A program made the translations under genes and the position numbers. The notes under the pieces were generated by a model. That model saw only the letters and a program-made list of their open reading frames with translations, was not told the DNA's origin and made no database searches. A DNA stretch of 64,000 bases from Bacteroidia bacterium (lineage in GTDB: Bacteria > Bacteroidota > Bacteroidia > NS11-12g > UBA9320): contig JADLGN010000009.1 in NCBI GenBank assembly GCA_020849295.1, forward strand, positions 51,705-115,704, written 5' to 3'. Shown here one piece after another: positions 51,184-64,000 of this stretch (the first letter of the stretch is position 1; every line of letters begins with the position of its first letter).

Positions 51184-53193
51184 TTAATCTACAATTTTAA
51201 ATGTAATTGAATATACGTTTGCACTACCTTGTGGAACATTAGGCATAGCAGGACCTCTTGACCCCGAAGATTTAAATGTTTCAGCAAATAAAGCAGAAAA
51301 CGGACTATCGTTTTCGCCTCTGCTTCCAGAGCCTCTAGTACTTATTATACTTGACAAATCCAAGGGTTTTTCGGTAGCAATAATTTTAAAAACTTCATTT
51401 CCTGTTGGTGGATAAAAAACAACTATATCATCATCGCCTAGCTCTTTACTCTCTCCTCTTTTTATAAAATAATCGTTAGCTGTTCTCCCTGTTTCTGCAT
51501 TAGGTACCACTAGATTTATTTTATTGTCAGGTTGAATATCTATTATAGTAAAGTACAAATCTTTTGTACCGTTATTTGTTACTTTAATTTTGAATGCTTC
51601 TCCGGCTTTAATAATTAATACTCCTGACGAATCATATTTTGTTTTTATATCACCTCTTGATTTTTCGACAATTTTATCGCCATTTTCGGTAGTTTCAATC
51701 GGAATGAACTCAAATTTTACATCAAGTTTTGCATCACTCACCTCCAGACCTCTTATATAATTTGCCTGACTGTAATCTTTTATTTTTGAAATTATACTTT
51801 CTGTAGTTACTTCAATATTGCTGTTTACAGTTTCGTCAAGTAGTACATAATCAGAATTTGAAGTGATTTTAATCTGCGACCCCCTGCTGTGCTTATTGCC
51901 TTCATCAATTATCAAATCTGCTCCTTCGTTTACAATAGTAATAAACGGATATTTTTTCAATTCTTCGTTTATAGAGTTTTTCAAGCTAGCATTACTTACC
52001 TCCATTTTAACTTTCAAACTAATTTTACCATAATTTTTTTCAGTTACATATATCCAAGAATTTAATGCTGTATTTTTATCTAAAGGATTATCAAGTGTAA
52101 CTTCGGCATTTGTTAGTCCTGCTGAGGTAATTTTGCCTGTTGCTTTTGGTTTTGCTTTTGAAAAGTCTTTTATGTCTATGTCATAAAACGCAACTTTCGT
52201 ATTAGCATATAATCCAAGTAATTCGCCTCCATTTATAGTTACAGTTTTATCACTTTTCCATTTCTCAACCTTATAATACTCTGTTTTACCATTAATTTTT
52301 CCACCTAAAATTGTATAATCAAGTTGACCTTCTGCCTGTGGAGTTTGACGTGGGGCAAAACCACTCATTTCTACTTTTATTTTGTCAAATATTCCTCTAT
52401 ATGTAGAATTTTTTCCTGCATTTGAAAATACTCTACTGAAGGCATAACTCAACGAACCAACACCGTTATGGTTTTCATCTTCTGTTTCATAATTAAGTTC
52501 ATTTGGGCTTGCTCCGAAAAAACTAACCATAGAAGCCATTTTATCTGTTGAACCTGAATTTGAAACTATTGAATTTTTTTCTCCATTATTATTTCCTTTT
52601 GGCGAATATCCTTCAGGGGCACAAGGTTTATCGCTTCCCCTGTGTTTTTTTATTCCATCTCCTCTGGTACCTGTTCCAGAATGGCAAGCATCAAGTATTA
52701 CCATTACGTTTCCTTTTGCTCCAAGTTTTTTTCTTAACTCATCCATTTTGGCACCAAGCTCTTCATCTCTAAGGTGATTTTCTCCTTCATATATTCCTTT
52801 TTGATAACGCATGTTGGCATTGTATGATACAAGTGCTTCATCATATCCGTCAATTTCATCGCCATTGTTATCAATTACTTGCTGCCCATGTCCTGAATAA
52901 TGAAAAACTGCAATTCCATCTTTGGTTGATTTAGCAATTAGGTGCTCATTTATTGCTTTCAAAATTCCGTCTTTAGTTGCTTGTGCATCTCTAATTACAA
53001 GTATATCTTTTTCAGAAAAGCCTTGTTTAATCAATGCAGCTTTTATTAGTGGCACATCATTTTGAGAACTAATATTTGACCATCCTGTGCTTGGATCATA
53101 GTTGCCTATTGCTACTATGAGTGCTATTTTACTTTGAGCCTGAGCATAAGCCACTATGAGCATAACTCCCATTAAAATCATTAACTTTTTCAT
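51184..53193 (-). CDS. secreted caspase-family (peptidase C14) protein with a ~400-aa C-terminal beta-rich extension
   Basis: Signal peptide (MKKLMILMGVMLIVAYAQAQ), catalytic His (FHYSGHG) and Cys (ILDACHSG) dyad in caspase spacing. The C-terminal domain is unassigned. Confidence 0.8.
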   Translation of the reverse strand: MKKLMILMGVMLIVAYAQAQSKIALIVAIGNYDPSTGWSNISSQNDVPLIKAALIKQGFSEKDILVIRDAQATKDGILKAINEHLIAKSTKDGIAVFHYSGHGQQVIDNNGDEIDGYDEALVSYNANMRYQKGIYEGENHLRDEELGAKMDELRKKLGAKGNVMVILDACHSGTGTRGDGIKKHRGSDKPCAPEGYSPKGNNNGEKNSIVSNSGSTDKMASMVSFFGASPNELNYETEDENHNGVGSLSYAFSRVFSNAGKNSTYRGIFDKIKVEMSGFAPRQTPQAEGQLDYTILGGKINGKTEYYKVEKWKSDKTVTINGGELLGLYANTKVAFYDIDIKDFSKAKPKATGKITSAGLTNAEVTLDNPLDKNTALNSWIYVTEKNYGKISLKVKMEVSNASLKNSINEELKKYPFITIVNEGADLIIDEGNKHSRGSQIKITSNSDYVLLDETVNSNIEVTTESIISKIKDYSQANYIRGLEVSDAKLDVKFEFIPIETTENGDKIVEKSRGDIKTKYDSSGVLIIKAGEAFKIKVTNNGTKDLYFTIIDIQPDNKINLVVPNAETGRTANDYFIKRGESKELGDDDIVVFYPPTGNEVFKIIATEKPLDLSSIISTRGSGSRGENDSPFSALFAETFKSSGSRGPAMPNVPQGSANVYSITFKIVD

Positions 53194-53219
53194 TTTTATT
53201 TTTTTTTTTTTTAAAACTA

Positions 53220-54692
53220 TTAGTAGTAAATAGTTGATTTAAGAACTGAACTATTACCTGATAAATGCTGGCGGTACAACTGAGCTTGTGCAGATGGATT
53301 ACTTGCATCTGTAATATAATAATCAAACACTCCGCTAAGACTGCTATATCTTATTGCAGCACCAAGTTCAGATAATTTTAAAACTTTCCACATATTTGGA
53401 TTGCTTTCGTTATATATTCCACCACATAATACAAAATATGTTTTACCCTTATATTCTCCTCTTTGATTTTTAAATCTCTTTTCGCCCTCTGAATACTGAT
53501 ATTGATTTCCACCTTCACTATAATCAAATGCTACTTGTCCATAAGAAGTATTTAATGAAACTCCTGGTATTTGTGTCAATACATAGGTAGCAATTGTTTC
53601 AAGTTCTGATTGTTTTAGCTCTCCAGCAGTAAAACTTACTGTTTCAGTTGTCCCAGAGGCTGACTTAAGTACAAGCGTAACTTTTGTATTTGGATTTATT
53701 TTTTCAAATTCACCAAGTACCTCTTCTACATTTCTAACTTCTACACCATTAACTTTAGTTACAAAATAACCAATTTTTGAACTTAAAGCACTATATGCAT
53801 TGCTTTCGGGTATAACACCATAAATTTTTGCTGCTTCGTCTTTAATATAATAATTTTGTCCATCAACATCATACGCTTGTGCTACTTCAATACCAAGGTA
53901 AGCACGTTTTACTCTGCCATTATTTGCAAATACATCTTTTATTATTTTTTCGGTAATTTTTGGCTCAAGCGAAAAATTTATTTGCTGTTGCAAAACCTGA
54001 CTACCATCAGGAGCAGTTGCAAATGCTATTTGAGAGTTCACACCCACAACTTCACCTTTTTCATTAATCAATGGTCCGCCACTATTTCCCCAAATAATTG
54101 TTGCTGTGTGTTGCAAAAATCCGAATTTACCCGTAAGACCTCCTCTTGCACGATTTTTTGCACTAATAATACCATCAGTTACTGTATAAGGATATGTGCC
54201 TAATGGATTTCCTATTGCATATACTTTGTCTCCTATTTTTGGCTCAGATTTTGTAAAATCTACATAATCTATTTCTGACCCAGGAGTTGTTACAAATTCA
54301 AGAATTGCAAGATCGTAAAATGAATCTCCGCCTAATACTCTTACTTCATATTTTGTTTGATTGATAGAAAAAACATAAATACTTCCGCTTGAAGTTGATG
54401 CTGATTCTATAACGTGAGCATTTGTTACTACATAATACTTCCCGTTTCTTTTAATAATAAACCCAGAACCGCTTCCTTTTGCATTTGATAAGTCAAGGGC
54501 TTTCCTGTATGCCTCTTCAGAAACTTCACCTCTCATACCAAGAGTCATTTTGCCATAAGGCTCTGTTTGATAAACTGCAACTGTAACTACTGCCGCAAGG
54601 CATTTGTCTAATACTGCTGATGCACTTTGTGCAAATGATGATACTACTAAACTAAGTAGCGCTAATGATGTTAAAATTGTACGTCTCATTTT
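53220..54692 (-). CDS. secreted trypsin-like serine peptidase (S1 family, DegP/HtrA-like protease domain) with C-terminal extension
   Basis: Signal peptide MRRTILTSLALLSLVVSSFAQ, catalytic His (VTNAHV) and Ser (GNSGGPL). Start trimmed from the ORF-track 54779. A 26-bp T-run separates it from the caspase-like gene. Confidence 0.8.
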   Translation of the reverse strand, partial: KMRRTILTSLALLSLVVSSFAQSASAVLDKCLAAVVTVAVYQTEPYGKMTLGMRGEVSEEAYRKALDLSNAKGSGSGFIIKRNGKYYVVTNAHVIESASTSSGSIYVFSINQTKYEVRVLGGDSFYDLAILEFVTTPGSEIDYVDFTKSEPKIGDKVYAIGNPLGTYPYTVTDGIISAKNRARGGLTGKFGFLQHTATIIWGNSGGPLINEKGEVVGVNSQIAFATAPDGSQVLQQQINFSLEPKITEKIIKDVFANNGRVKRAYLGIEVAQAYDVDGQNYYIKDEAAKIYGVIPESNAYSALSSKIGYFVTKVNGVEVRNVEEVLGEFEKINPNTKVTLVLKSASGTTETVSFTAGELKQSELETIATYVLTQIPGVSLNTSYGQVAFDYSEGGNQYQYSEGEKRFKNQRGEYKGKTYFVLCGGIYNESNPNMWKVLKLSELGAAIRYSSLSGVFDYYITDASNPSAQAQLYRQHLSGNSSVLKSTIYY

Positions 54693-54802
54693 TTTGTTTT
54701 TTTTATTTTTTTTAGGTAATACTTTTAAAATATAGAAGGTAAATAATATGACAAAATAAGTATTTTTTTTATTAATCATTTTAAAATTTTACTTAACTAT
54801 AT

Positions 54803-55528
54803 TTGTATGCAAATCAAATGCTAAAATTTTTAACTTCAATATTATTTATATTATTTTCATTTTGTGTATTTTCACAACCGATTGCAAGTTTCGAAAAAAA
54901 ACAAATTGATTTTGGAACAGTAACAGAAGGGACAATATGTAAATATACATTTAAGTTTAGAAATACAGGCAATAAACCATTAATTATTTACAAAGTTGAT
55001 GTTACATGTGGATGCACAACTCCAAGGTGGTCATCTCCTATAAAACCTGGCGATACATCTTCTGTTTACGTTGAACTTAATACAAGTTTTAAAACCGGTT
55101 ATTTGGCAAAAGGAGTAAATCTTACTGTAAATGCTGATGACCCTGAAGTAAACTTAGTATTAATAGCCAATGTTGTTCCTGACACTAATTTTAAAACTAA
55201 AATTGATTCTGTTACTTATTTCCCTATAAAAACAATATGCTACAAATCTTTATGTCAAATTGAAATTTCATTAAATAATCTACATAAGAAAAAATTTAAA
55301 GGCGATGTTGAAAATGCAGAAAATCTTGTTAAATATATTTTAAGAAAACAAAATTACCAAGTGCTTAGTAATATTTGGTATAGTTCAAATTCTGATTTTG
55401 TACAGATAAATACAACAAATGAAGATTATAACTTAATTTTAGCAAAAACGCTTTACAAAGAACTTAAATCTAAATGCAGAATAAAACGATTACAGAAAAA
55501 AATGAAAAGAACTAAATGGTCGAATTAA
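54803..55528 (+). CDS. DUF1573-domain protein (secreted, Bacteroidota-specific Ig-like domain)
   Basis: Signal peptide plus the DUF1573 signature (IDFGTVTEGT...YKVDVTCGCTTP). Confidence 0.7.
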   Translation: MYANQMLKFLTSILFILFSFCVFSQPIASFEKKQIDFGTVTEGTICKYTFKFRNTGNKPLIIYKVDVTCGCTTPRWSSPIKPGDTSSVYVELNTSFKTGYLAKGVNLTVNADDPEVNLVLIANVVPDTNFKTKIDSVTYFPIKTICYKSLCQIEISLNNLHKKKFKGDVENAENLVKYILRKQNYQVLSNIWYSSNSDFVQINTTNEDYNLILAKTLYKELKSKCRIKRLQKKMKRTKWSN

Positions 55529-56313
55529 TTTCAAGTTTTAAGAATCCATTAATAAAAAATATAAATAAACTTAGTAAATCAAAAGAAAGAAAAGAACAAA
55601 ATCTTATTACTATCGAAGGTTTAAGAGAATGTTATCATGCTATTCATTCGGGATTTAATATAAAAAAAATCATTTTTTGCAGCAAACATATTAGCGAAAT
55701 CAACTTAAAAGACAAACTTAAAATTTCTAATGAATTAAATATTACAGATGTTTCTCCTGAGGTATTTGATTCACTTGTTTATCGCAAGGGAATTGAAAAT
55801 TGCTTAGCAATCGCAGAACCTGTTTTCTATACTTTTCAAAATTTAAATTTACCATCAAATCCTCTTATATTAATTATAGATTCGGTTGAAAAACCTGGCA
55901 ATATGGGTGCTATGTTGCGTACTTGTGATGCTGCCGGAACTGATGCAGTAATAGTTACAGACAGCGTAACAGATTTGTACAACCCAAATTGTATAAGAGC
56001 AAGTCTTGGGGCTGTTTTTACCCAAAAAATAATTTTATCATCTGTTGGCGAATGTATTGATTGGTTAAAATCAAATAAAATTTCAACTTATTTAACTTAT
56101 TTGGATTCATCTGACTTTTATTATAAACACAATTTCACTTCTGCAAGTGCAATTGTTGTTGGCTCAGAAGCAAATGGAATCAATAAAAAATGGCTCGAAC
56201 ACAATTTTAATTGTATAAAAATTCCACAAAAAGGTGCTATAGATTCTATGAACGTTTCAAACTCTGCTTCAGTTATACTTTATGAAGCAATAAGGCAAAG
56301 AAATATAGAATAA
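55516..56313 (+). CDS. TrmH/SpoU-family RNA 2'-O-methyltransferase (RlmB-like)
   Basis: SPOUT motifs (VEKPGNMGAMLRTCDAAG; IPQKGAIDSMNVSNSASVILYE). Confidence 0.8.
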   Translation: MVELISSFKNPLIKNINKLSKSKERKEQNLITIEGLRECYHAIHSGFNIKKIIFCSKHISEINLKDKLKISNELNITDVSPEVFDSLVYRKGIENCLAIAEPVFYTFQNLNLPSNPLILIIDSVEKPGNMGAMLRTCDAAGTDAVIVTDSVTDLYNPNCIRASLGAVFTQKIILSSVGECIDWLKSNKISTYLTYLDSSDFYYKHNFTSASAIVVGSEANGINKKWLEHNFNCIKIPQKGAIDSMNVSNSASVILYEAIRQRNIE

Positions 56314-56317
56314 CCGA

Positions 56318-57130
56318 TTAAATACCCATAGAATTAAGCACTTCTTCGCTTGCTCCGGTAAATGAATATCCGCCATCGTGAAAAAGATTTTGCATTGTTA
56401 CCATTTTTGTATAATCAGAAAACATTACAACACAATACTCTGCACACTCATCGGCAGATGCATTTCCAAGTGGCGACATTTTTTCTGAATAACTCAAAAA
56501 CGAATCAAAACCGCCAACACCAGAACCTGCTGATGTAAATGTAGGAGATTGTGAAATTGTATTAATTCTTACCTTTTTCTTTTTACCATAATGAAATCCC
56601 ATACTTCTTGTTATAGATTCAAGCAAGGCTTTAGTATCTGCCATTTCATTGTAATTAGGAAATACTCTTTGTGCAGCAATATAAGTAAGTGCAACTACGC
56701 TTGACCATTCTTTCAATGCGTCTAAATTATAACATGTTTGAAGTAGCCTATGAAATGAAATTGCAGATACATCCAAAGTTTTTTTCATAAGTTCATAGTC
56801 AAGTTCAGTATAAGAATGTTTTTTTCTAATATTAAAACTCATACCGACCGAATGTAAAATAAAATCTAATTTACCACCCAACTTTTGCATTGATTGTTCA
56901 ATCAGATTTTTCATATCATCATCAACACTAACATCACATGGTATAATTTCCGAACCTGTCTTTTGAGCTAATTCATTAATAGTACCCATTCGCAAAGCAA
57001 TAGGTGCGTTAGTCAAAACAAAACTGGCACCTGCTTCATTGCATTTTTCGGCTACTTTCCATGCAATAGAACGTTCATCAAGTGCTCCAAAAATAATTCC
57101 TCTTTTACCTTCAAGAATTTTGTAATTCAT
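56318..57130 (-). CDS. fabI: enoyl-[acyl-carrier-protein] reductase FabI (NADH)
   Basis: N-terminal LEGKRGIIFG...SIAWKVAEK dinucleotide-binding pattern and the catalytic Y-x6-K (YIAAQRVFPNYNEMADTKALLE), which matches FabI rather than generic SDRs. Confidence 0.8.
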   Translation of the reverse strand: MNYKILEGKRGIIFGALDERSIAWKVAEKCNEAGASFVLTNAPIALRMGTINELAQKTGSEIIPCDVSVDDDMKNLIEQSMQKLGGKLDFILHSVGMSFNIRKKHSYTELDYELMKKTLDVSAISFHRLLQTCYNLDALKEWSSVVALTYIAAQRVFPNYNEMADTKALLESITRSMGFHYGKKKKVRINTISQSPTFTSAGSGVGGFDSFLSYSEKMSPLGNASADECAEYCVVMFSDYTKMVTMQNLFHDGGYSFTGASEEVLNSMGI

Positions 57131-57190
57131 TCTGCAATTTTAAGTAATTGTTCACTTAAATTAAAATTTTTGATTGAATAAAGTTGATAA

Positions 57191-58219
57191 TTGGTAAATT
57201 TGAATTTTTTAATGAAGAAAAAAACTGAAGCTGAACGAAAATCAGAACATATAAAACTTGCATTAAAGTCTCAAATTTCTGAAGCAGATACACGATTTTA
57301 TTATGAACCTGCAATTAATTGCAATATAAACGAAACAGATATTTCTGTAGAATTTTTGAATTACAAATTTGGTGCTCCTATTTGGGTATCGAGTATGACG
57401 GGCGGAACAGCAAATGCAAATAAAATTAATAATAATCTGGCTCTGGCTTGCAAAAAGTATAATCTTGGTATAGGGCTTGGCTCTTGCAGGTCTTTGCTTT
57501 ATAGTGATGAATTTCTTAATGATTTTAATCTGAGAAAAATTGCAGGAGATAATGCTGTAATTTTTGCAAATCTTGGCATTGCTCAAGTTGAACAATTGTT
57601 AATTTCAGATAAACTAAATAAAATAAGCGAACTTATAGATAAAACCAACACAAATGGCTTGATTATTCATATTAATCCTCTTCAAGAATGGCTTCAACCG
57701 GAGGGTGATAAAATATCTTTAAATCCATTTCATACTATTTCTGAAGTTCTCAATAAAAAAGATATTAATATTATTGTAAAAGAAGTTGGTCAGGGAATAG
57801 GTCCTGAAAGTATTAAAAAACTTATGGAATTACCTCTAAAAGCAATTGAGTTTGGAGCATTGGGAGGAACAAATTTTTCTCAAATTGAAATATCCAGAAA
57901 TGACAATATTCTAAAAAGTGAATTTACTCCTGTTACCAAAGTAGGTCATACTGCAATTGAAATGGTTGATTTTGTAAATAATTTGACCAAAAATAAAAAC
58001 TTCAAACCTTTGTGTAACAATTTTATTATTTCAGGTGGAATAAAAGGATTTTTAGATGGCTATTACCTGACTTCAAAAATTAATTCACCTTCAATTTATG
58101 CTCATGCTTCCGGATTTTTGAAGTATGCTCAACTTGATTTTGAAAACTTATGCAATTATATCGAAACTCAAATTTCAGGATTAAAAATGGCTAAAACATT
58201 ACTTGTTCCCAGATTTTAA
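57191..58219 (+). CDS. fni: type 2 isopentenyl-diphosphate delta-isomerase (FMN-dependent)
   Basis: TIM-barrel IDI-2 motifs (RKSEHIKL, WVSSMTGGT, GALGGTNF); 342 aa. Confidence 0.8.
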   Translation: MVNLNFLMKKKTEAERKSEHIKLALKSQISEADTRFYYEPAINCNINETDISVEFLNYKFGAPIWVSSMTGGTANANKINNNLALACKKYNLGIGLGSCRSLLYSDEFLNDFNLRKIAGDNAVIFANLGIAQVEQLLISDKLNKISELIDKTNTNGLIIHINPLQEWLQPEGDKISLNPFHTISEVLNKKDINIIVKEVGQGIGPESIKKLMELPLKAIEFGALGGTNFSQIEISRNDNILKSEFTPVTKVGHTAIEMVDFVNNLTKNKNFKPLCNNFIISGGIKGFLDGYYLTSKINSPSIYAHASGFLKYAQLDFENLCNYIETQISGLKMAKTLLVPRF

Positions 58220-59244
58220 GATTTTAAATTTCTTATAAATTCATACTTTATCAAACAAATAATTTTTCTGCTCACTTTATTATCTCCAATAGTAATTCTA
58301 ACTGCATTAGGTTGCCCAAAAACTTTCATATCACAAATAATAATATTGTTTTGAGCAAGAACATTATAAAAACAATCTTTTTCTTTTTCGCTGTCAAACC
58401 ATAAATATATAAAATTTGCCTGACTTGGAAATATATTTAATCCTAATTTTACAAAATTTTCATATAGATACTTCAAATTTATTCTATTTTTCTCCCTTGA
58501 ATTTTCAATAAAATTATCATCTTCAATAGAAGCTATTGCTGCTGCTTCTGCAATTGTATTGAGCGTAAAAGGCAACATTTTTGATGACATTTTTACAATA
58601 TTTTTTTCATCTGCTATACCAAATCCGACACGAATCCCTGCAATTCCATAAATTTTAGATAATGAGTGTAAAATAATTAGATTTTTATATTTTTCCTGTA
58701 ATTTTATTGAATCCGGAAAATTGTCATCGAATACGTATTCAGAATATGCTTCATCGATTGCTACAATTATTTCTGGTGAAATTTCTGATAAAAAACTTTC
58801 AAGCTCATTATGTGAAATAATTGTACCTGTCGGATTATTAGGATTTGCAATAAAAATAAGTTTAGTTTTTTTATTAATTAATGGTAACAATTTTTTTGGA
58901 TCACACCTGCCATTATCAAGTTTTGCCATAACACATTTCTTATTATGAAACGAGCATAGTTGTTTGTATGCAACAAAACTATTGTCAAAAATCAGTACTT
59001 CTTCATCATCTTTTACAAAGGTTAAAATTAAATTTTCTATTATTCGAACCGAGCCTGCTCCTATTATCAATTTATTAGCCGAAATATTATATTTATTGGC
59101 TAATACTTCCTTTAATTTTAGTGGAGCATTTGGATAAAGGCTTATGTTTTCTGTTTGTGAATTAATTGCTTTAAATACATTTGGCGAGCAACCATAAAAA
59201 TTCTCATTTGCCGAAAGTCTTACATTTATTATATTTCTTTTCAT
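58216..59244 (-). CDS. PLP-dependent aminotransferase, HisC (histidinol-phosphate/aromatic aminotransferase) family
   Basis: LSANENFYGCSP near the N-terminus and the PLP lysine region HSLSKIYGIAGIRVGFG; 342 aa. Last gene of the redox operon. Confidence 0.7.
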   Translation of the reverse strand: MKRNIINVRLSANENFYGCSPNVFKAINSQTENISLYPNAPLKLKEVLANKYNISANKLIIGAGSVRIIENLILTFVKDDEEVLIFDNSFVAYKQLCSFHNKKCVMAKLDNGRCDPKKLLPLINKKTKLIFIANPNNPTGTIISHNELESFLSEISPEIIVAIDEAYSEYVFDDNFPDSIKLQEKYKNLIILHSLSKIYGIAGIRVGFGIADEKNIVKMSSKMLPFTLNTIAEAAAIASIEDDNFIENSREKNRINLKYLYENFVKLGLNIFPSQANFIYLWFDSEKEKDCFYNVLAQNNIIICDMKVFGQPNAVRITIGDNKVSRKIICLIKYEFIRNLKS

Positions 59245-60131
59245 TAATTCGTCTTTGAAAATTCTTCTAAAATACTTTTGCTAATATTGAAAAGAACCTG
59301 CTTTCTGTACCATGCTGTTGCCCTTAAATCATCTATTGGAGATGCATATTTTAATATATGGTTTGCAAATTCATCAATTTCGTTGTTTTTAAGTTCAGTT
59401 ATATTTTTATTAATCAAAAAATCACAAGCGTCGTAAGCAAAAATAACAGTTGGGGCAGATGCTCCAAAGGCCAAACCGGCACTTATCACTTTATAATTTT
59501 CGTTTAACTGAATATGATAAGCAAGGGAAACCACAGAACATTCCATAGATTTTCGTGTACCAATCTTGATAAACCCTGAATACATATTTTTAGGATTTAC
59601 TTTATTTAAATCTATTTCTATTGATGATAAAAATTCACTTTTTTTTAGATCAGTAATTCGTACTCCTTTATAAAACTCAAGAATCGAAACAGATCTTTTG
59701 TTTCCGGCAAAATCGATTATTTCAAGATTTGCTTTTAAAGCCATAAGGGCACAAATTAAATCACCAGAAGGTGAAGCTGTACATATATTTCCTCCAATAG
59801 TTGCAACTTGTCTAATTTGATTTGAAGCAAGGTTTTGTGCAGCTTCTTTCAATGTAGGAAAATTTGTTACAACTTCATTATTTGTGCAAATTTTAACAAC
59901 ATTTGTATTTGCGCCAATTACAATTTTATTGTTTGAAAGTTTAATATTATTAAAATCTTCATCATTTATTTGAGAAATATTTATTACTGTTAAGTCATCT
60001 TCAGGTTTCTTTCTCAGTTCCATTATCAAATCTGTGCAACCAGCACCAATTCTGTATTTTTTGTTTTTGTACTCACTCAACAATTCAATAAGTTCATTTT
60101 TGCTGGCGGGAATTTCTATATTAAAATTCAT
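59244..60131 (-). CDS. molybdenum hydroxylase (xanthine dehydrogenase family) FAD-binding medium subunit (CoxM/XdhB-like)
   Basis: FAD_binding_5-type pattern (GAGCTDL...; ATIGGNIC) and the CO-dehydrogenase-flavoprotein C-terminal pattern; 295 aa. Confidence 0.75.
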   Translation of the reverse strand: MNFNIEIPASKNELIELLSEYKNKKYRIGAGCTDLIMELRKKPEDDLTVINISQINDEDFNNIKLSNNKIVIGANTNVVKICTNNEVVTNFPTLKEAAQNLASNQIRQVATIGGNICTASPSGDLICALMALKANLEIIDFAGNKRSVSILEFYKGVRITDLKKSEFLSSIEIDLNKVNPKNMYSGFIKIGTRKSMECSVVSLAYHIQLNENYKVISAGLAFGASAPTVIFAYDACDFLINKNITELKNNEIDEFANHILKYASPIDDLRATAWYRKQVLFNISKSILEEFSKTN

Positions 60132-60138
60132 TCAATTT

Positions 60139-62430
60139 TTATTTTTTAAAATTAATAGCTTTCAAAACTCTTTCAGGGGTAAGAGGCAATTCTAAAACTT
60201 CAATGTCCAATGCGTCGCAAACTGCATTAGCAATAGCGGCAGCAGTTGGAATAAGAGGCGCTTCTCCTACTCCTTTTGCTCCATAAGGTCCTTGTTTGTC
60301 ATTTGTTTCAATTGGATAAAAATGAATATTTGGGACATCAGAGGCAGTAAGAAGTTTATAGTTATGAAAATTTGGATTTAGTAACTTTCCTTCTTCATAA
60401 ATCATTTCTTCTGAAATTGCATAACCTATTCCCTGTAAAATTCCACCATGTATTTGTCCATCTAAAAGTAAAGGATTTAGTACTTTGCCTACATCCTGAG
60501 CAGTATGAACATTTGTAATTTCAATATTTCCTGTATAAGTATCTACTTTTACTTCTATAGCCTGCGATGCAAAAGCATAAGTGCCCGAAACATTACCTTT
60601 AAATTCTTTATTTTGAAATTGGCTTAATGGCTCATAAAAATAACTTGCTATGGCAAGTTCGCTTGGTTCTGAAAAATGCATTTCTCTTACAACTTTGTCA
60701 AGCGCTAGTGCCTCGTTTGCATTTTCAATTGCAATCATTCCGTTTTGGTATATAAAATCTGAGTTTTCAGTATTTAATAATTGTTTGGCTTTATTATTTA
60801 ATTTATCTTTTAAAATATTAATTGCTCCAAGCAATGAATTTCCAGCCACAAAACTTGTACGTGAAGCATGTACCCCTACATCCCATGGTTTAATATCAGT
60901 ATCGGTATTTATTACTTTTATTTTTGATAGTTCAATACCTAATTCTTCTGATGCTATCATTGCAAGAACAGTTTCTGAGCCTTGCCCAATTTCATTTGAG
61001 CCAGTAATAATTGTACAATATCCGTAAGGGTCAATTTTTAATGTAGTTCCACAGCCATCAGAACGGTAAATTTTGGCTCCGCCACCTACATGCAACATTG
61101 ACGCAAGCCCAATTCCTTTTCTGAATCTGCCATTTTCTGTATTTTTTTTATTATAAAAATTACTTTCTGAAATTACCTTTTCAAGACACTCAATATGACC
61201 GCATGTTTCGTAATGTAAGCCCTGTCCTGTAATTTCATTTTTATAGTTTGCGTTTTTTAGTCTTATTTCAGCTTTACTAATTTTTAGCTTATCTGCTAAT
61301 AAATCAATAATTCTTTCAAGAGCAAAAGTAGCCTGTGGATTGCCATACCCTCTGAAAGAGCCGGCAAATACATTATTAGTATAAACTGCAGTTGCTTCAA
61401 ATTTGCATGCTTTTACCTGATAAAGTGATGAAAATGCTTGCATAATTACAAATGGAGTTGTTGCCCCCCATGATGTATAGGCGCCGTTATCTTTTATGAT
61501 TTTTATATCTCGATATGTAAAATTTCCATCTTTATCAGCACCACATGCAATATCTATAATCATTGGTTGTCTTGTAGGTGAGGCAATAAACTCTTCCTGT
61601 CTTGAATAAATAATTTGAACAGGTTTGCCTGTTTTAATTGAAAGTAATGCACAAATTGGTTCAAATGGATACATATCAAGTTTGCTGCCAAATCCCCCAC
61701 CAATCACAGGCTGAATAATTCTAATATCAGATGGATTCATTTTTAAGGCATGTGCCATATCTCTCTGATATAAAAATGGCACTTGGGTAGAACTATATAA
61801 AACTAACTTGCCACTAAGTTTATCAAAATGAGCAGTAATATTACTTGTTCCCATACATGCATGAGTTACTCTAGGCAATGTAAATCTGCGTGAAACATTT
61901 ACTATACTTTTCTTTTTTTCTTCTTCAATGTTTCCATGTGAATATTTAAATACTTCGGCTGTATTTTTGTTTTTGTATTTGCCACTTATAAATTTATTTA
62001 TTTGTGGCGAACTTTCTTCAAGAGCTTCTATCGGGTCGTATATTCCTTTTCTTATTTTATATTCTACTCTTATAAGTTTAATTGCATTTTGGGCTACTTC
62101 TTTTGATGTTGCTGCTACTGCGGCAATTTCATCTCTTATACAATTTACTTCTCCCTTTTTCAGTATAGGATGGTCTCTTTTATAACTAATATTATTTACA
62201 TCAATATCGTCAGCAGTAATTATACATTCAACTCCTTCAAGTTTTAAAGCCTCTGAAATATCAATTTTTTCAATAATTGCAGATGGATGTTCTGTACGAA
62301 GAATTGCACCATATAACATCCCTGTCAAATTAATATCATGCCCATATACTGCCTGACCGCTTACTCTTATTTTTCCATCATGTTTTGGTACGGGAGTACC
62401 TATGATATTTAATTTCCTTTTTTTAAGCAT
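60139..62430 (-). CDS. molybdenum hydroxylase (xanthine dehydrogenase/aldehyde oxidase family) molybdopterin-binding large subunit
   Basis: 763 aa with an a/b-hammerhead N-terminus, the GGGFGSK motif and conserved active-site Glu region. Substrate not assignable. Confidence 0.85.
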   Translation of the reverse strand: MLKKRKLNIIGTPVPKHDGKIRVSGQAVYGHDINLTGMLYGAILRTEHPSAIIEKIDISEALKLEGVECIITADDIDVNNISYKRDHPILKKGEVNCIRDEIAAVAATSKEVAQNAIKLIRVEYKIRKGIYDPIEALEESSPQINKFISGKYKNKNTAEVFKYSHGNIEEEKKKSIVNVSRRFTLPRVTHACMGTSNITAHFDKLSGKLVLYSSTQVPFLYQRDMAHALKMNPSDIRIIQPVIGGGFGSKLDMYPFEPICALLSIKTGKPVQIIYSRQEEFIASPTRQPMIIDIACGADKDGNFTYRDIKIIKDNGAYTSWGATTPFVIMQAFSSLYQVKACKFEATAVYTNNVFAGSFRGYGNPQATFALERIIDLLADKLKISKAEIRLKNANYKNEITGQGLHYETCGHIECLEKVISESNFYNKKNTENGRFRKGIGLASMLHVGGGAKIYRSDGCGTTLKIDPYGYCTIITGSNEIGQGSETVLAMIASEELGIELSKIKVINTDTDIKPWDVGVHASRTSFVAGNSLLGAINILKDKLNNKAKQLLNTENSDFIYQNGMIAIENANEALALDKVVREMHFSEPSELAIASYFYEPLSQFQNKEFKGNVSGTYAFASQAIEVKVDTYTGNIEITNVHTAQDVGKVLNPLLLDGQIHGGILQGIGYAISEEMIYEEGKLLNPNFHNYKLLTASDVPNIHFYPIETNDKQGPYGAKGVGEAPLIPTAAAIANAVCDALDIEVLELPLTPERVLKAINFKK

Positions 62431-62433
62431 AAT

Positions 62434-62955
62434 TTACTCTTCATTAATCAACACTTTTTCGGCGGCATCTATAATTTTTATATAACCTGTGCATCTGCAC
62501 AAATTTCCTTCAAGCCATTTTTTAATTTCTTCTTTGTTTGGTTTTTTCTTATTTTTTACATTATTATTTTGACTTAAATAATAGTTCTCAATTGATTTGA
62601 TTGACATTATCATACCAGAGGTACAAAATCCGCATTGAACGGCACCATTATCAATTATTGCTTTTTGAACATGGTCAAGTGTACCGTCATTTTTTACTAA
62701 ACCTTCAATAGTTGTAATTTCTTTTCCGTTTGCATTTACTGCAAGGTATAGGCACGAATTTATTGCATTTCCATTAATCAAAACAGTACATGCCCCACAT
62801 TCACCTTCATTACAGCCCGGTTTTGTACCCTTCATACCAAGTTCATCTCTTAAAATATCAAGCAGTAATGATGAAGGCTTTACATCCATATTAATTTTTC
62901 GATTGTTAAGCTCAAATGAAATTTTTATTTTTTTGCTTACTTCAGTTTTTTGCAT
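62434..62955 (-). CDS. molybdenum hydroxylase [2Fe-2S]-binding small subunit (CoxS/XdhC-type)
   Basis: Plant-type ferredoxin cluster (CNEGECGACTV) and a second [2Fe-2S] motif (CGFCTSGM...CRCTGY). Confidence 0.85.
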   Translation of the reverse strand: MQKTEVSKKIKISFELNNRKINMDVKPSSLLLDILRDELGMKGTKPGCNEGECGACTVLINGNAINSCLYLAVNANGKEITTIEGLVKNDGTLDHVQKAIIDNGAVQCGFCTSGMIMSIKSIENYYLSQNNNVKNKKKPNKEEIKKWLEGNLCRCTGYIKIIDAAEKVLINEE

Positions 62956-62969
62956 TTTTAATATTATAT

Positions 62970-63557
62970 CTATATTGTGGTTTCTTCAAGTAATCCCATT
63001 TTAAAAATTCTTAATGATTTTTCTTTATTTTTTCCTTCAACTATGTTTTCTATTGCTCTCTCAATGATATTAGCACTAAGGGGAAAGTCAGGCAAGACTG
63101 CCATTTTACCTAATAAATATAAATTGTAATTTACAGCATCTATACTTTCAGGAAAATTCTCAACAAAAACTACCTTTCTACACTGTGATTTTAAAAATTC
63201 CATTAATTTAACAATATCAGGATATACTGATGTTCCTGCATTTACAGAGTATGGCAGCATTTTGTAGTTCCCAAAAACCACACAACTATTTTTATGTAAA
63301 TAATTAAGACATCTTTGAGTCTCTAATGGTTCAAGTCCAATCAAAAAATCTACTCCTGCATTTTTCATAAAACCAGAGCAATTTTCTCCAAGTCCAATAC
63401 CGGCTGTTACTACTCCTCCTCTTTGAGATAATCCGTGAATTTCACTTACACTTACAGAAATATCAGAAATCATAGCTGCTTCTACTAAAATATTTGTAAG
63501 GTAAACTATACCTTGCCCTCCTACTCCTGCTATAAGAATTTTTGTTTTTACACTCAT
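62970..63557 (-). CDS. 2-oxoacid:ferredoxin oxidoreductase gamma-like subunit (POR-gamma / IorB-like)
   Basis: N-terminal ILIAGVGGQGIVYLTNIL motif of the POR-gamma domain; 195 aa, matching IorB/KorC size. Confidence 0.7.
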   Translation of the reverse strand: MSVKTKILIAGVGGQGIVYLTNILVEAAMISDISVSVSEIHGLSQRGGVVTAGIGLGENCSGFMKNAGVDFLIGLEPLETQRCLNYLHKNSCVVFGNYKMLPYSVNAGTSVYPDIVKLMEFLKSQCRKVVFVENFPESIDAVNYNLYLLGKMAVLPDFPLSANIIERAIENIVEGKNKEKSLRIFKMGLLEETTI

Positions 63558-64000
63558 TAATTTATCGTTTCTTCTTCAACTGTTGCCCAACTTATAGCAT
63601 TATTAGGACATACATCAATACACAAACCACATAATGTACATCTCGACATATCAATTTGAACTTTTCCATTAACCTTAACCATTGCAGGACAACCGAAATT
63701 ATCAATACAATGATTGCATTTCTGACAAGACTGGAACAAATCATATTTCTCAAGTTCTTTTTTATCAATATCAAAATTATTAGTTCTATAGTGAGGTATT
63801 TGAGTATCGTTTAATCTTTTTAAAGCAAAATCTCCTTCATAATCGTATTTATAGTTCTCAAGAAATTTTCTTACTTGTATTGCTGCTTTTTTGCCAGACG
63901 CAATGGCTCCAATCAAACTCATATTGTTACCGGCACAAACATCTCCTGCTACAAATACTTTATCTATTTCCAATTTATTTTCAAAATTATTTATTCTGCC
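63557..64000 (-). CDS. partial (C-terminal): FAD/NAD(P)-dependent oxidoreductase, GltD/PreT-like, with a C-terminal 2x[4Fe-4S] ferredoxin domain; continues beyond the window
   Basis: The ORF is open to the window edge. VFVAGDVCAGNNMSLIGAIASGKKAAIQVRKFL is the classic C-terminal FAD motif of GltD-like flavoproteins, followed by CQKCNHC...CP and CTLCGLCIDVCP clusters. It could alternatively be an IorA-like subunit, though no TPP motif is seen. Confidence 0.5.
   Translation of the reverse strand, partial: GRINNFENKLEIDKVFVAGDVCAGNNMSLIGAIASGKKAAIQVRKFLENYKYDYEGDFALKRLNDTQIPHYRTNNFDIDKKELEKYDLFQSCQKCNHCIDNFGCPAMVKVNGKVQIDMSRCTLCGLCIDVCPNNAISWATVEEETIN

What the first reader, a model, noticed from the sequence alone, without database searches (positions are those of the whole stretch)
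58216..64000. Tightly packed redox operon: GltD-like Fe-S flavoprotein, POR-gamma/IorB-like protein, three-subunit molybdenum hydroxylase and HisC-family aminotransferase
Six minus-strand genes have overlaps or gaps of 14 nt or less (63557 is shared; 62955/62970, 62430/62434 and 60131/60139 abut; 59244 is shared), implying one transcript. The composition is unusual. The POR-gamma/IorB-like subunit has no visible TPP-containing alpha/beta partner. Instead it is preceded by a protein whose visible C-terminus has a GltD/PreT-type FAD motif plus two [4Fe-4S] clusters. A complete XDH-family enzyme follows ([2Fe-2S], Moco, FAD subunits), then a HisC-type aminotransferase, the family that includes aromatic amino-acid aminotransferases. 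This looks like a dedicated electron-transfer chain feeding or draining a molybdenum hydroxylase. It could serve an aromatic or N-heterocyclic catabolic route: amino acid to 2-oxo acid by transamination, then oxidoreductase and Mo-dependent hydroxylation. Neither the substrate nor the role of the orphan POR-gamma module can be inferred from sequence. A ModE-N-like regulator sits about 16 kb away at 42674-43011.
Basis: partly seen in the sequence, partly recalled or inferred. Interest (0 to 1): 0.6.

Follow-up and report, generated by a model that had tools for sequence, protein, structure and literature searches.

The report
Oxygen-independent tryptophan breakdown operon, entry half
These six genes are the downstream end of a roughly 25-kb operon in an uncultured freshwater Bacteroidia bacterium that most likely converts tryptophan to indoleacetyl-CoA and then runs the known oxygen-independent "iaa" auxin-degradation pathway; it is a new variant of a known pathway, not a new kind of redox complex.

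Summary
Six minus-strand genes sit at the stated coordinates with 1-nt overlaps or gaps of 3-14 nt, and with the stated domains.

The POR-gamma/IorB-like protein is not an orphan. The truncated first gene is the last 147 codons of a 1126-aa protein of this same genome (MCC6721042.1). That protein is an IorA (TPP) core fused to a GltD-like FAD/NAD(P) module and a 2x[4Fe-4S] domain.

Upstream in the same genome lie a family III CoA-transferase, a B12 acyl-CoA mutase and an acyl-CoA dehydrogenase. The dehydrogenase carries the GGG active-site motif that marks IaaF (benzylmalonyl-CoA dehydrogenase). Related genomes add hydantoinase A/B, RidA and a hydratase/dehydrogenase; one also has a TrpB2-like enzyme.

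The Mo subunit's nearest relatives (45% identity) sit in Desulfobacterota iaa clusters, next to hydantoinase, mutase and a PaaK-like ligase.

Best reading:
- Tryptophan goes to indolepyruvate (HisC-family aminotransferase).
- Indolepyruvate goes to indoleacetyl-CoA (NAD(P)-linked IOR fusion plus IorB).
- Indoleacetyl-CoA goes to 2-oxoindoleacetyl-CoA (Mo hydroxylase).
- The rest of the iaa route leads to 2-aminobenzoyl-CoA.

Gene order is conserved in 41 loci from uncultured Bacteroidota and one Ignavibacteria genome. Verdict: new variant of a known kind, moderately interesting.

The parts
63557..64000 (-). 3' end (last 147 codons) of a 1126-aa IorA::GltD fusion gene that runs off the window. 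The visible part is the end of the GltD-like FAD/NAD(P) domain plus a 2x[4Fe-4S] ferredoxin domain. The full protein is MCC6721042.1 (P0543).
   Evidence: Translation is open to the window edge. The fragment is identical to the C-terminus of P0543. P0543 scores 594.8 bits on IOR_alpha over residues 18-621 and 276 bits on PRK12771 NAD(P)-binding protein over residues 636-1116. A 97%-identical strain contig, L095, shows the same gene.
62970..63557 (-). IorB-like POR-gamma subunit (195 aa, MCC6721041.1), partner of the fused alpha subunit.
   Evidence: Pfam POR, 63.5 bits. The best NCBIfam hits are all IorB models, 140.7 bits against a cut-off of 238. Its start shares one base with the stop of the alpha gene (TAATG). 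It lies directly after the IorA::GltD gene in most of the related loci that carry both genes (unrelated insertions separate them in L024 and L042; L043 has another OFOR).
62434..62955 (-). [2Fe-2S] small subunit of an XDH-family molybdenum hydroxylase (173 aa; NCBI calls a 164-aa version, MCC6721040.1).
   Evidence: Fer2_2 96.6 bits plus Fer2. It is 51% identical to the FeS subunit of the Desulfobacterota iaa cluster L091.
60139..62430 (-). Molybdopterin-binding large subunit (763 aa), the proposed indoleacetyl-CoA 2-hydroxylase (dehydrogenase).
   Evidence: Pfam Ald_Xan_dh_C, MoCoBD_1 and MoCoBD_2. All NCBIfam equivalogs score below cut-off. The nearest solved structure is 4-hydroxybenzoyl-CoA reductase alpha, 1RM6_A, at 350 bits. 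The nearest 50%-cluster representatives are P0121 and P0122, at 45% identity and 732/715 bits; the next scores 585 bits. The P0121 family lies in iaa-type clusters. See also the NJ tree and the 35 shared clade-specific residues.
59244..60131 (-). FAD-binding medium subunit of the Mo hydroxylase (295 aa, MCC6721038.1).
   Evidence: FAD_binding_5 130.9 bits plus CO_deh_flav_C. It lacks the [4Fe-4S] insertion of 4-HBCR beta, aligning only over residues 26-118.
58216..59244 (-). HisC-family class I/II aminotransferase (342 aa, MCC6721037.1), the proposed tryptophan/aromatic amino acid:2-oxoacid aminotransferase. It is the last gene of the operon.
   Evidence: Aminotran_1_2 173.7 bits. TIGR01141 hisC scores 267.6 bits, below its cut-off of 276.55. 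NCBI gives only a generic name. Among PDB hits, the M. tuberculosis putative phenylalanine aminotransferase 4R2N (148 bits) scores far above E. coli HisC (75 bits). It lies directly after the FAD subunit gene in 35 related loci.

Best explanation
The six genes are the entry half of one long catabolic operon for oxygen-independent degradation of tryptophan (and possibly indole). The route goes through indoleacetyl-CoA and then follows the 'iaa' pathway known from Aromatoleum.

Proposed steps for the window genes:
1. The HisC-family aminotransferase converts tryptophan to indole-3-pyruvate.
2. The IorA::GltD fusion together with IorB oxidatively decarboxylates indolepyruvate to indoleacetyl-CoA. 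Electrons pass from TPP through the [4Fe-4S] clusters to the fused FAD domain and on to NAD(P)+, instead of to free ferredoxin.
3. The three-subunit molybdenum hydroxylase hydroxylates C2 of the pyrrole ring, using water, to give 2-oxoindoleacetyl-CoA.

Genes just outside the window then finish the job. A hydantoinase-like lactamase opens the ring to (2-aminophenyl)succinyl-CoA. A family III CoA-transferase shifts the CoA. A B12 mutase makes (2-aminobenzyl)malonyl-CoA. A GGG-type acyl-CoA dehydrogenase oxidises and decarboxylates it to 2-aminocinnamoyl-CoA. Hydratase/dehydrogenase and thiolase then yield 2-aminobenzoyl-CoA plus acetyl-CoA.

Shown: gene content, fusion architecture, conserved order, nearest-relative contexts and diagnostic motifs. 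Inferred: every substrate and the electron acceptor.
For: (1) The full first gene of this genome (P0543 = MCC6721042.1, C-terminus identical to the window fragment) is IorA (595 bits IOR_alpha, TPP motif) plus a GltD-like module plus 2x[4Fe-4S].
(2) In the same genome the consecutive accessions MCC6721043 and 044 are a family III CoA-transferase and an MCM-type mutase, and MCC6721048 is an acyl-CoA dehydrogenase. A 97%-identical strain contig, L095, shows the CoA-transferase and mutase genes physically, directly upstream of the fusion gene.
(3) That dehydrogenase carries LIGGGTSEI, that is GGG in place of YEG. PMC8360864 reports this as the hallmark of the IaaF subclass.
(4) The Mo subunit's nearest relatives among 1.84 billion representatives (45% identity, 732 bits, against 585 for the next cluster) are Desulfobacterota proteins. 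Their genes sit in clusters of CoA-transferase, B12 mutase, hydantoinase A/B, PaaK-like ligase and the XDH FAD/FeS/Mo subunits. This matches the iaa gene set. An NJ tree and 35 shared clade-specific residues agree.
(5) The mutase is 53% identical to the mutase of those clusters and shares the GGGGxGLTKEQPENN signature, where MCM and HCM have HCQT... It keeps the carboxylate-binding Tyr and Arg.
(6) Related Bacteroidota loci L096 and L098 carry hydantoinase A/B (caprolactamase-like) and RidA just upstream. L096 also carries a 3HCDH/ECH fusion and a TrpB2-like enzyme, which scores 727 bits against a cut-off of 366.
(7) No CoA ligase occurs in any of the 45 loci checked. This fits the aminotransferase plus IOR delivering the CoA ester directly. 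OFOR conversion of indolepyruvate to indoleacetyl-CoA has been shown experimentally for another enzyme.
(8) The order is conserved in 41 loci.
Against: No biochemical data exist for any of these proteins. I could not compare them directly with the Aromatoleum Iaa proteins, because the sequences were not obtainable. The link therefore runs through Desulfobacterota clusters that I identify as iaa-type by gene content, not by experiment.

The statement that the Aromatoleum pathway uses an XDH-family Mo dehydrogenase rests on my recollection of Ebenau-Jehle et al. 2012.

Hydantoinase A/B, RidA, TrpB2 and 3HCDH/ECH were seen in related genomes, not in this genome. HydA/B are only 31-37% identical to those of the Desulfobacterota clusters (48% to a second copy in L093).

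IOR enzymes also accept phenylpyruvate and 4-hydroxyphenylpyruvate, so the aminotransferase and IOR need not be specific for tryptophan. The NAD(P)+ acceptor role of the fused domain is inferred from domain homology only. The HMGCS-like::DUF35 protein in the operon has no assigned step. The fate of 2-aminobenzoyl-CoA is unknown.
Confidence: 0.72

Rival explanations
1. The same iaa-like enzyme chain acts on a different heteroaromatic or aromatic 2-oxo acid, for example a substituted indole, or imidazolepyruvate from histidine, rather than on tryptophan.
For: The aminotransferase belongs to the HisC family, whose founding substrate carries an imidazole. Substrate range of IOR-type enzymes cannot be read from sequence (stated in the preprint read). 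TrpB2 was seen in only one related lineage.
Against: The GGG-type dehydrogenase, the mutase signature and the Mo subunit all group with enzymes of indoleacetate clusters. A TrpB2-like indole-condensing enzyme sits in the L096 operon. The alpha subunit's best model is IOR_alpha. An imidazole analogue would not yield an arylsuccinyl-CoA for the mutase and the decarboxylating dehydrogenase (inference).
Confidence: 0.12
2. One reading: the GltD-like Fe-S flavoprotein and an orphan POR-gamma form a dedicated electron-transfer chain that feeds or drains the molybdenum hydroxylase.
For: The six genes are tightly coupled. GltD-like Fe-S flavoproteins accompany XDH-family genes in E. coli: the fusion hits the YgfK model at 210 bits and also the AegA/YgfT models.
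Against: The GltD module is covalently part of a TPP-containing IorA, and IorB is its normal partner. The Mo enzyme has its own FeS and FAD subunits. Its closest relatives occur without any IOR or GltD gene. In L043 a different OFOR (gamma::GltD plus alpha plus beta) takes the place of the fusion, which shows that the GltD module travels with the OFOR.
Confidence: 0.04
3. Two ordinary, unrelated units lie side by side: a general aromatic amino acid fermentation module (aminotransferase plus IOR) and a purine-catabolic xanthine dehydrogenase.
For: Second-best NCBIfam hits of the three Mo-enzyme subunits are Xdh models. The catalytic GVGE motif and the FRGYG arginine are XDH-like (seen in the sequence).
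Against: All Xdh models score below their cut-offs: 529/780, 168/310 and 189/217. The aminotransferase gene lies downstream of the Mo-enzyme genes and the IOR genes lie upstream, so the Mo genes sit inside the module. The order is kept across 35 loci. Nearest relatives are in iaa-type clusters, not purine clusters.
Confidence: 0.05
4. The Mo enzyme is a 4-hydroxybenzoyl-CoA reductase-type enzyme that dehydroxylates a phenolic CoA ester derived from tyrosine.
For: The best NCBIfam model (540 bits) and the best solved structure (1RM6_A, 350 bits) for the large subunit are 4-HBCR alpha.
Against: 540 bits is far below the cut-off of 994.55. The FAD subunit lacks the [4Fe-4S]-binding insertion that defines 4-HBCR beta. 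The iaa-cluster proteins are much closer, at 732 bits. The neighbouring genes (mutase, GGG-type dehydrogenase, hydantoinase) have no role in tyrosine degradation via 4-hydroxybenzoyl-CoA (inference).
Confidence: 0.03

Closest known systems
iaa gene cluster for anaerobic indoleacetate degradation in Aromatoleum aromaticum EbN1 / A. evansii (Ebenau-Jehle 2012; Schuhle 2016; IaaF characterised in PMC8360864)
   Same: It has the same set of catalytic types: an XDH-family Mo dehydrogenase, a hydantoinase-like A/B enzyme, a family III CoA-transferase (IaaL type), a split B12 acyl-CoA mutase (IaaGH type), an acyl-CoA dehydrogenase with GGG instead of YEG (IaaF type) and beta-oxidation enzymes. The predicted product is also the same, 2-aminobenzoyl-CoA.
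   Different: There is no indoleacetate-CoA ligase (IaaB). Entry is instead by an aminotransferase plus a two-gene IOR whose alpha subunit is fused to a GltD-like NAD(P) module, so the predicted substrate is tryptophan rather than free auxin. One lineage has a TrpB2-like gene. The thiolase is SCP-x type and comes with an HMGCS-like::DUF35 fusion. The host is Bacteroidota, with about 30% G+C. No direct sequence comparison with the Aromatoleum proteins was possible.
iaa-type clusters of Desulfobacterota (Desulfomonile tiedjei family, Desulfobacterales MAGs, Olavius symbiont Delta 1), loci L091-L094
   Same: They hold the closest relatives of the window's Mo subunit (44-45% identity), FeS subunit (51%) and the mutase (53%). 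The mutase signature is shared, and the hydantoinase A/B family is the same.
   Different: They have a PaaK-like CoA ligase and TRAP or ABC transporters, and no aminotransferase, IOR or GltD gene. The Mo-enzyme genes run FAD-FeS-Mo there and FeS-Mo-FAD here. The FAD subunits are only 27% identical.
Indolepyruvate:ferredoxin oxidoreductase IorAB (archaeal and clostridial type)
   Same: The alpha subunit has a TPP motif and Fe-S motifs, a small POR-gamma-type beta subunit is encoded immediately downstream, and IOR_alpha and IorB are the best family models.
   Different: About 450 residues of a GltD-like FAD/NAD(P) module with its own two cluster motifs are inserted between the TPP core and the C-terminal ferredoxin domain. 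Both subunits score below the curated cut-offs (595/651 and 141/238). Canonical IorA proteins from other phyla match only residues 17-602 of the fusion.
Phenylglyoxylate:NAD+ oxidoreductase PadEFGHI of Azoarcus/Aromatoleum (from my own knowledge, not tested here)
   Same: It is an OFOR that carries an extra GltD-like FAD subunit and reduces NAD+ instead of ferredoxin. This is the functional precedent for the fused module. Locus L043 even has a Pad-like layout: gamma::GltD, alpha, beta.
   Different: Pad is a five-subunit enzyme of the POR/KOR type, not an IOR type. Its GltD-like part is a separate subunit, and its substrate is phenylglyoxylate.
4-hydroxybenzoyl-CoA reductase HcrABC (PDB 1RM6)
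   Same: It is the nearest solved structure for the large subunit, and it is an XDH-family enzyme that acts on an aromatic CoA thioester.
   Different: It works as a reductase, with an extra [4Fe-4S] cluster in the FAD subunit that is absent here. Scores are far below the family cut-off.
Tryptophan degradation in Ferroglobus placidus (Aklujkar et al. 2014; cited in PMC7201606; content recalled from memory)
   Same: As I recall it, the proposed logic is the same: aminotransferase and IOR lead into iaa-like enzymes and on to 2-aminobenzoyl-CoA. PMC8360864 lists an IaaF orthologue in F. placidus.
   Different: It is an archaeon. The IOR is not known to be fused to a GltD module. Whether the genes form one operon was not checked here, and the paper could not be read.

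Membership tests
iaa-type indoleacetate/indoleacetyl-CoA degradation cluster | XDH-family molybdenum dehydrogenase whose closest relatives are the Mo enzymes of iaa clusters | tested here: met
   The nearest representatives are P0121 and P0122, at 45% identity and 732/715 bits, against 585 bits for the next. The P0121 family sits in clusters with hydantoinase, mutase, ligase and CoA-transferase. See also the tree and shared residues. Caveat: the comparison is with Desulfobacterota clusters, not with the Aromatoleum enzyme itself.
iaa-type indoleacetate/indoleacetyl-CoA degradation cluster | Acyl-CoA dehydrogenase of the IaaF subclass, with GGG replacing the YEG active-site motif | tested here: met
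   P0432 = MCC6721048.1, from this genome, seven genes upstream of IorB by accession order, has RFTLIGGGTSEI. L003 and L013 have the same motif. The criterion comes from PMC8360864. The gene lies outside the window.
iaa-type indoleacetate/indoleacetyl-CoA degradation cluster | Split B12-dependent acyl-CoA mutase (IaaGH type) that binds a substrate carboxylate | tested here: met
   MCC6721044.1 is in this genome, and L095 shows the gene. It is 53% identical to the mutase of iaa-type cluster L091 and shares the GGGG signature. The Tyr of RQYAGF and the Arg of GRGTW are kept.
iaa-type indoleacetate/indoleacetyl-CoA degradation cluster | Family III CoA-transferase (IaaL type) | tested here: inconclusive
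   A CoA_transf_3 protein (MCC6721043.1) lies between the mutase and the IOR genes. No IaaL sequence or complete Desulfobacterota counterpart was available, so orthology was not tested.
iaa-type indoleacetate/indoleacetyl-CoA degradation cluster | Hydantoinase/oxoprolinase-like A and B subunits (IaaCE) for lactam ring opening | tested here: inconclusive
   They are present directly upstream of the GGG dehydrogenase in the related loci L096 and L098, and are caprolactamase-like at 674 and 407 bits. They are 31-37% identical to those of Desulfobacterota clusters. They could not be seen in this genome because its contig could not be fetched.
iaa-type indoleacetate/indoleacetyl-CoA degradation cluster | Indoleacetate-CoA ligase (IaaB, PaaK-like) | tested here: not met
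   tblastn with the L091 ligase found nothing in the window or in the 45 related loci, and no AMP-binding gene is called in L096/L098. The aminotransferase plus IOR occupy this role, so the cluster is a variant, not a canonical member.
iaa-type indoleacetate/indoleacetyl-CoA degradation cluster | Demonstrated conversion of indoleacetate or indoleacetyl-CoA to 2-aminobenzoyl-CoA | not testable with these tools
   This needs enzyme assays or growth experiments.
Indolepyruvate:ferredoxin oxidoreductase IorAB | Alpha subunit reaching the curated IOR_alpha score, with a TPP motif | tested here: inconclusive
   TIGR03336 scores 594.8 bits against a cut-off of 650.9, over residues 18-621. The TPP motif GDGTFFHSG...FDN is present. 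The shortfall coincides with the inserted GltD module.
Indolepyruvate:ferredoxin oxidoreductase IorAB | Beta subunit reaching a curated IorB score | tested here: not met
   The best IorB model, NF005323, scores 140.7 bits against a cut-off of 238, and TIGR03334 scores 127.5 against 205.8. It is the best-matching family but a divergent subfamily: identity is 24-31% to the four full-length IorB proteins of other phyla fetched.
Indolepyruvate:ferredoxin oxidoreductase IorAB | Free ferredoxin as the electron acceptor | not testable with these tools
   The fused GltD-like FAD/NAD(P) module suggests NAD(P)+ instead (inference).
Xanthine dehydrogenase (XdhABC / PucCDE) | Subunits reaching curated equivalog scores | tested here: not met
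   XdhA scores 528.9 against 780, XdhB 168.5 against 310 and XdhC 189 against 217. The Puc models score lower still.
4-hydroxybenzoyl-CoA reductase | Alpha subunit above cut-off, and a beta subunit with the extra [4Fe-4S]-binding insertion | tested here: not met
   Alpha scores 540.2 against 994.55 and beta 89.4 against 404.55. The beta alignment to 1RM6_B covers only residues 26-118.
Histidinol-phosphate aminotransferase HisC (biosynthetic) | Curated hisC equivalog score and a his-operon context | tested here: inconclusive
   TIGR01141 scores 267.6 against 276.55, just below. The context is catabolic, not a his operon. Its PDB neighbours include the M. tuberculosis putative phenylalanine aminotransferase 4R2N at 148 bits, against 75 bits for E. 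coli HisC. It is a member of the HisC family in the broad sense; the specific function is not settled.

The most novel reading that the evidence does not exclude
Uncultured freshwater and groundwater Bacteroidota carry a single operon for complete oxygen-independent conversion of tryptophan, and of indole via TrpB2, to 2-aminobenzoyl-CoA. Its gateway enzyme is a previously undescribed type of 2-oxoacid oxidoreductase: an indolepyruvate oxidoreductase with a built-in GltD-like flavoprotein that hands the low-potential electrons directly to NAD(P)+, or couples them in a bifurcation-like manner. That would make an OFOR independent of ferredoxin.
Probability: 0.45. Interest if true: 0.65.

Novelty: new variant of a known kind. 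Interest (0 to 1): 0.55.

Why it matters
Known bacterial routes for tryptophan breakdown either need oxygen (the kynurenine pathway) or stop at indole or aryl acids. The oxygen-independent iaa route has been studied only for free auxin in denitrifying Betaproteobacteria and predicted in a few strict anaerobes.

If this reading is right, a widespread group of uncultured lake and groundwater Bacteroidota can feed protein-derived tryptophan, and perhaps indole, straight into that route. That would add a sink for tryptophan and indole in anoxic waters.

It would also supply a compact operon with every step encoded. Its IOR is fused to an NAD(P)-type flavoprotein, which could be useful as a ferredoxin-independent 2-oxoacid oxidoreductase. 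It also corrects the database names of these genes, currently 'FAD-dependent oxidoreductase', 'methylmalonyl-CoA mutase' and 'acyl-CoA dehydrogenase family protein'.

Tried and rejected
- **Extending the window by exact look-up of its own proteins.** IorB gave only a 1.4-kb contig. The Mo subunit and the ACAD P0432 were not on record. The problem was solved indirectly through a 97%-identical strain contig and cluster look-ups giving NCBI accessions.
- **Fetching the Aromatoleum iaa operon.** I scanned metagenomes for the published iaaF primer 22-mer.
- **tblastn of the Mo subunit against plasmids**. It returned only generic XDH-family hits of 33% identity or less, which gave no help.
- **Reading the key papers.** Ebenau-Jehle 2012 is not held. 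Literature searches found no description of this cluster in Bacteroidota.
- **Valine/isobutyryl-CoA mutase idea.** The best PDB hit of the mutase is 2-hydroxyisobutyryl-CoA mutase, but I rejected the idea because the MCM-type Tyr and Arg that bind a free carboxylate are retained.
- **'Hydantoinase is missing'.** I concluded this provisionally. It was an artefact of the 10-kb flanks and was corrected.
- **Link to the mevalonate pathway.** I considered this because of the HMGCS-like::DUF35 plus thiolase genes and the adjacent type 2 IPP isomerase. It is left open. The IPP isomerase gene is convergent and lies outside the operon.
- **Promoter/terminator scan** and **Rfam scan**. Both were uninformative or empty.

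Full report
**Observation.** The region 58216-64000 holds six minus-strand ORFs exactly as described. The first is open to the window edge. Stop and start codons share a base at 63557 and 59244 (TAATG), and the other junctions are gaps of 14, 3 and 7 nt. Pfam gives the following:
- two Fer4 motifs after a GD-type FAD motif;
- POR (gamma type);
- Fer2/Fer2_2;
- Ald_Xan_dh_C + MoCoBD_1 + MoCoBD_2;
- FAD_binding_5 + CO_deh_flav_C;
- Aminotran_1_2.

NCBIfam places none of the proteins above a curated cut-off. The best models are IorB (141 bits against 238), 4-hydroxybenzoyl-CoA reductase alpha (540/995), XdhA (529/780), XdhB (169/310), XdhC (189/217) and hisC (267.6/276.55). The operon ends at the aminotransferase, whose stop overlaps a convergent type 2 IPP isomerase gene.

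**What lies beyond the window.** The window's own contig could not be fetched, but three routes closed the gap.
- A Logan contig (L095) is 96.97% identical to window 53096-64000 over 10,907 nt and continues 6,082 nt further. The first gene there is 1126 aa. It is preceded by a family III CoA-transferase (401 aa), an MCM-type mutase large subunit (536 aa) and a B12-binding small subunit.
- Exact-sequence look-ups gave the NCBI proteins of this very MAG: MCC6721037 aminotransferase, 038 FAD subunit, 040 FeS subunit, 041 IorB, 042 a 1126-aa 'FAD-dependent oxidoreductase', 043 CoA transferase, 044 'methylmalonyl-CoA mutase' and 048 an acyl-CoA dehydrogenase. All are on a contig of 148,852 nt.
- The C-terminus of MCC6721042 (P0543) is identical to the window's 147-residue fragment.

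P0543 matches IOR_alpha over residues 18-621 (595 bits) with the TPP motif GDGTFFHSG...FDN. It matches a GltD-like NAD(P)-binding Fe-S flavoprotein (PRK12771) over residues 636-1116, ending in the 2x[4Fe-4S] domain. The POR-gamma protein is therefore the ordinary small subunit of an IOR whose alpha subunit has acquired a GltD-like module. It is not an orphan.

**Conservation.** A scan of one genome per species found 41 loci, from MAGs labelled Bacteroidota plus Ignavibacteria bacterium CHB1, with IorB at 47-70% identity. Their order is [ACAD - HMGCS-like::DUF35 - thiolase] - B12 subunit - mutase - CoA-transferase - IorA::GltD - IorB - FeS - Mo - FAD - aminotransferase. Of the 36 loci with enough downstream sequence, 35 keep FeS-Mo-FAD-aminotransferase; L046 is broken after the FeS gene. 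Canonical IorAB loci from other phyla match only the first ~600 residues of the fusion. In L043 the fusion is replaced by a POR-gamma::GltD protein plus POR alpha and beta. The GltD module therefore goes with the 2-oxoacid oxidoreductase, not with the Mo enzyme.

**What the pathway is.** The gene set recalled the anaerobic indoleacetate (iaa) pathway of Aromatoleum. That pathway comprises:
- activation to indoleacetyl-CoA (IaaB);
- hydantoinase-like ring opening of the 2-oxo form (IaaCE);
[quoted passage not shown] - decarboxylating benzylmalonyl-CoA dehydrogenase (IaaF);
- beta-oxidation to 2-aminobenzoyl-CoA.

The XDH-family Mo dehydrogenase step I recall from Ebenau-Jehle et al. 2012, which I could not read. 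Four independent tests support the match.

1. PMC8360864 states that all IaaF-subclass enzymes have GGG in place of the YEG active-site motif. The operon's dehydrogenase has RFTLIGGGTSEI in this genome (P0432) and in L003 and L013.

2. A search of 1.84 billion representatives with the Mo subunit gave two nearest clusters at 45% identity (732 and 715 bits), then a drop to 585 bits. The P0121 family is from Desulfobacterota. Three of its contexts read (CoA-transferase) - B12 subunit - mutase - hydantoinase A - hydantoinase B - PaaK-like ligase - XDH FAD - FeS - Mo - transporter. An NJ tree groups the Bacteroidota and these clades apart from 24 other representatives. The two clades share 35 conserved residues that are rare elsewhere, against 10 in a control comparison.

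3. The mutase is 53% identical to the mutase in those clusters. Both share GGGGxGLTKEQPENN where human MCM and HcmA have HCQT..., and both keep the Tyr and Arg that bind a substrate carboxylate. That fits an arylsuccinyl-CoA substrate and excludes an isobutyryl- or hydroxyisobutyryl-CoA mutase.

4. Look-ups centred on the dehydrogenase showed what lies further upstream in two related lineages. L096 and L098 both have hydantoinase A (707 or 709 aa), hydantoinase B (558 or 557 aa; L096's pair is caprolactamase-like) and RidA. L096 also has a 3-hydroxyacyl-CoA dehydrogenase/enoyl-CoA hydratase fusion and a TrpB2-like enzyme (727 bits, cut-off 366).

My earlier impression that the ring-opening enzyme was missing was an artefact of the 10-kb flanks.

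**What differs from the known pathway.** No PaaK-like ligase occurs in any related locus. Its place is taken by the aminotransferase and the IOR, which would deliver indoleacetyl-CoA directly from tryptophan. OFOR-catalysed formation of indoleacetyl-CoA from indolepyruvate has been shown for a clostridial enzyme. The aminotransferase scores just under the hisC cut-off. Among solved structures it is much closer to the M. tuberculosis putative phenylalanine aminotransferase (148 bits) than to E. coli HisC (75 bits). A TrpB2-like gene in L096 suggests that indole could also be drawn in via tryptophan.

The Mo enzyme's nearest solved structure is 4-hydroxybenzoyl-CoA reductase alpha, an XDH-family enzyme that acts on a CoA thioester. 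The FAD subunit, however, lacks the [4Fe-4S] insertion that defines that reductase, and the GVGE catalytic glutamate motif is present. A hydroxylating dehydrogenase acting on a CoA ester is therefore the most economical reading.

**Mechanism and its status.**
- Shown: gene content, fusion architecture, order, conservation, nearest-relative contexts and diagnostic motifs.
- Inferred: Trp -> indolepyruvate (aminotransferase). Indolepyruvate + CoA -> indoleacetyl-CoA + CO2, with electrons passing from TPP via five predicted [4Fe-4S] sites to FAD and NAD(P)+ (cysteine motifs read from P0543). Indoleacetyl-CoA + H2O -> 2-oxoindoleacetyl-CoA (Mo enzyme). Then the upstream-encoded steps lead to 2-aminobenzoyl-CoA + acetyl-CoA + CO2.
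- Unexplained: the role of the HMGCS-like::DUF35 protein that is translationally coupled to the dehydrogenase and the thiolase; the acceptor of the Mo enzyme and of the GGG dehydrogenase; and the fate of 2-aminobenzoyl-CoA.

**Rivals.**
- An ordinary xanthine dehydrogenase is excluded by family scores and by context.
- A 4-HBCR-type reductase is excluded by the missing cluster insertion.
- A different heteroaromatic substrate cannot be excluded without assays, but it is disfavoured by the IaaF, mutase, Mo-clade and TrpB2 evidence.

**Verdict.** The locus is a new variant of the known iaa pathway. It is fed from tryptophan by an aminotransferase and an NAD(P)-type IOR fusion, and it is conserved in uncultured Bacteroidota from lakes, groundwater and soils (record titles). 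I found no description of it in the searchable literature. That library is incomplete, and a similar logic was, as I recall, proposed for Ferroglobus placidus. Interest is moderate (0.55).

The rest of the window holds ordinary housekeeping and efflux genes and no Rfam family.

Noticed in passing
window 33327-34598 and 34588-36489 (+): A single CusA/RND-type pump (ACR_tran profile positions 2-415 and 417-1020) is split into two ORFs that overlap by 11 nt. This is a frameshift, a pseudogene or an assembly error. It is followed by an OEP gene and two HlyD/CusB-like genes with heavy-metal-binding domains.
   Followed up: no
Nothing ties it to the operon.
   Followed up: partly
window 41178-42677 (+) and 28862-30565 (-): Two long ORFs (499 and 568 aa) have no Pfam match at E<=1e-5/1e-6.
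   Followed up: no
window 98-1417 (+): This is a lipoyl-bearing E2 component of a 2-oxoacid dehydrogenase complex. The organism therefore also has the aerobic-type enzyme class alongside the oxygen-sensitive-type IOR.
   Followed up: no
L013 13487-14359 and about 12 other related loci (for example L007, L011, L016, L020, L023, L033): A CysK-like PLP enzyme (290 aa; cysKM model 316 bits, below the cut-off of 344) is inserted between the Mo and FAD subunit genes. It is absent from the window. Its role is unknown.
   Followed up: partly
L003 825-2198 / L096 11128-12504, and by accession order probably MCC6721047 in this genome: A 458-aa fusion joins a divergent HMG-CoA-synthase-like domain to a DUF35/OB-fold domain. 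It overlaps the stop of the GGG dehydrogenase and the start of an SCP-x-type thiolase. It resembles the archaeal thiolase/HMGCS/DUF35 complex and BbsAB, and it has no assigned step in the pathway.
   Followed up: partly
L043 10-4402: In this relative the IorA::GltD gene is replaced by a 757-aa POR-gamma::GltD protein plus separate POR alpha (411 aa) and beta (303 aa) genes. This is a second, independent way of joining a GltD module to a 2-oxoacid oxidoreductase in the same operon position.
   Followed up: partly
L018 1680-6077 and L020 1510-5907: A 1465-aa protein with two BcrAD_BadFG ATPase domains plus DUF2229 ('CoA enzyme activase') is inserted between the CoA-transferase and IorA::GltD genes in two loci.
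   Followed up: no
L093 12655-14760 and L094 12359-16148: Desulfobacterota iaa-type clusters carry extra copies. L093 has a second hydantoinase A, which at 48% identity is the closest to the Bacteroidota HydA. L094 has a second complete XDH-family gene set.
   Followed up: no
L010 8768-8777: The IorA::GltD reading frame is interrupted at the IorA/GltD junction region in this MAG. The two tblastn pieces cover residues 1-727 and 731-1120. This is either a frameshift or a genuinely split gene.
   Followed up: no
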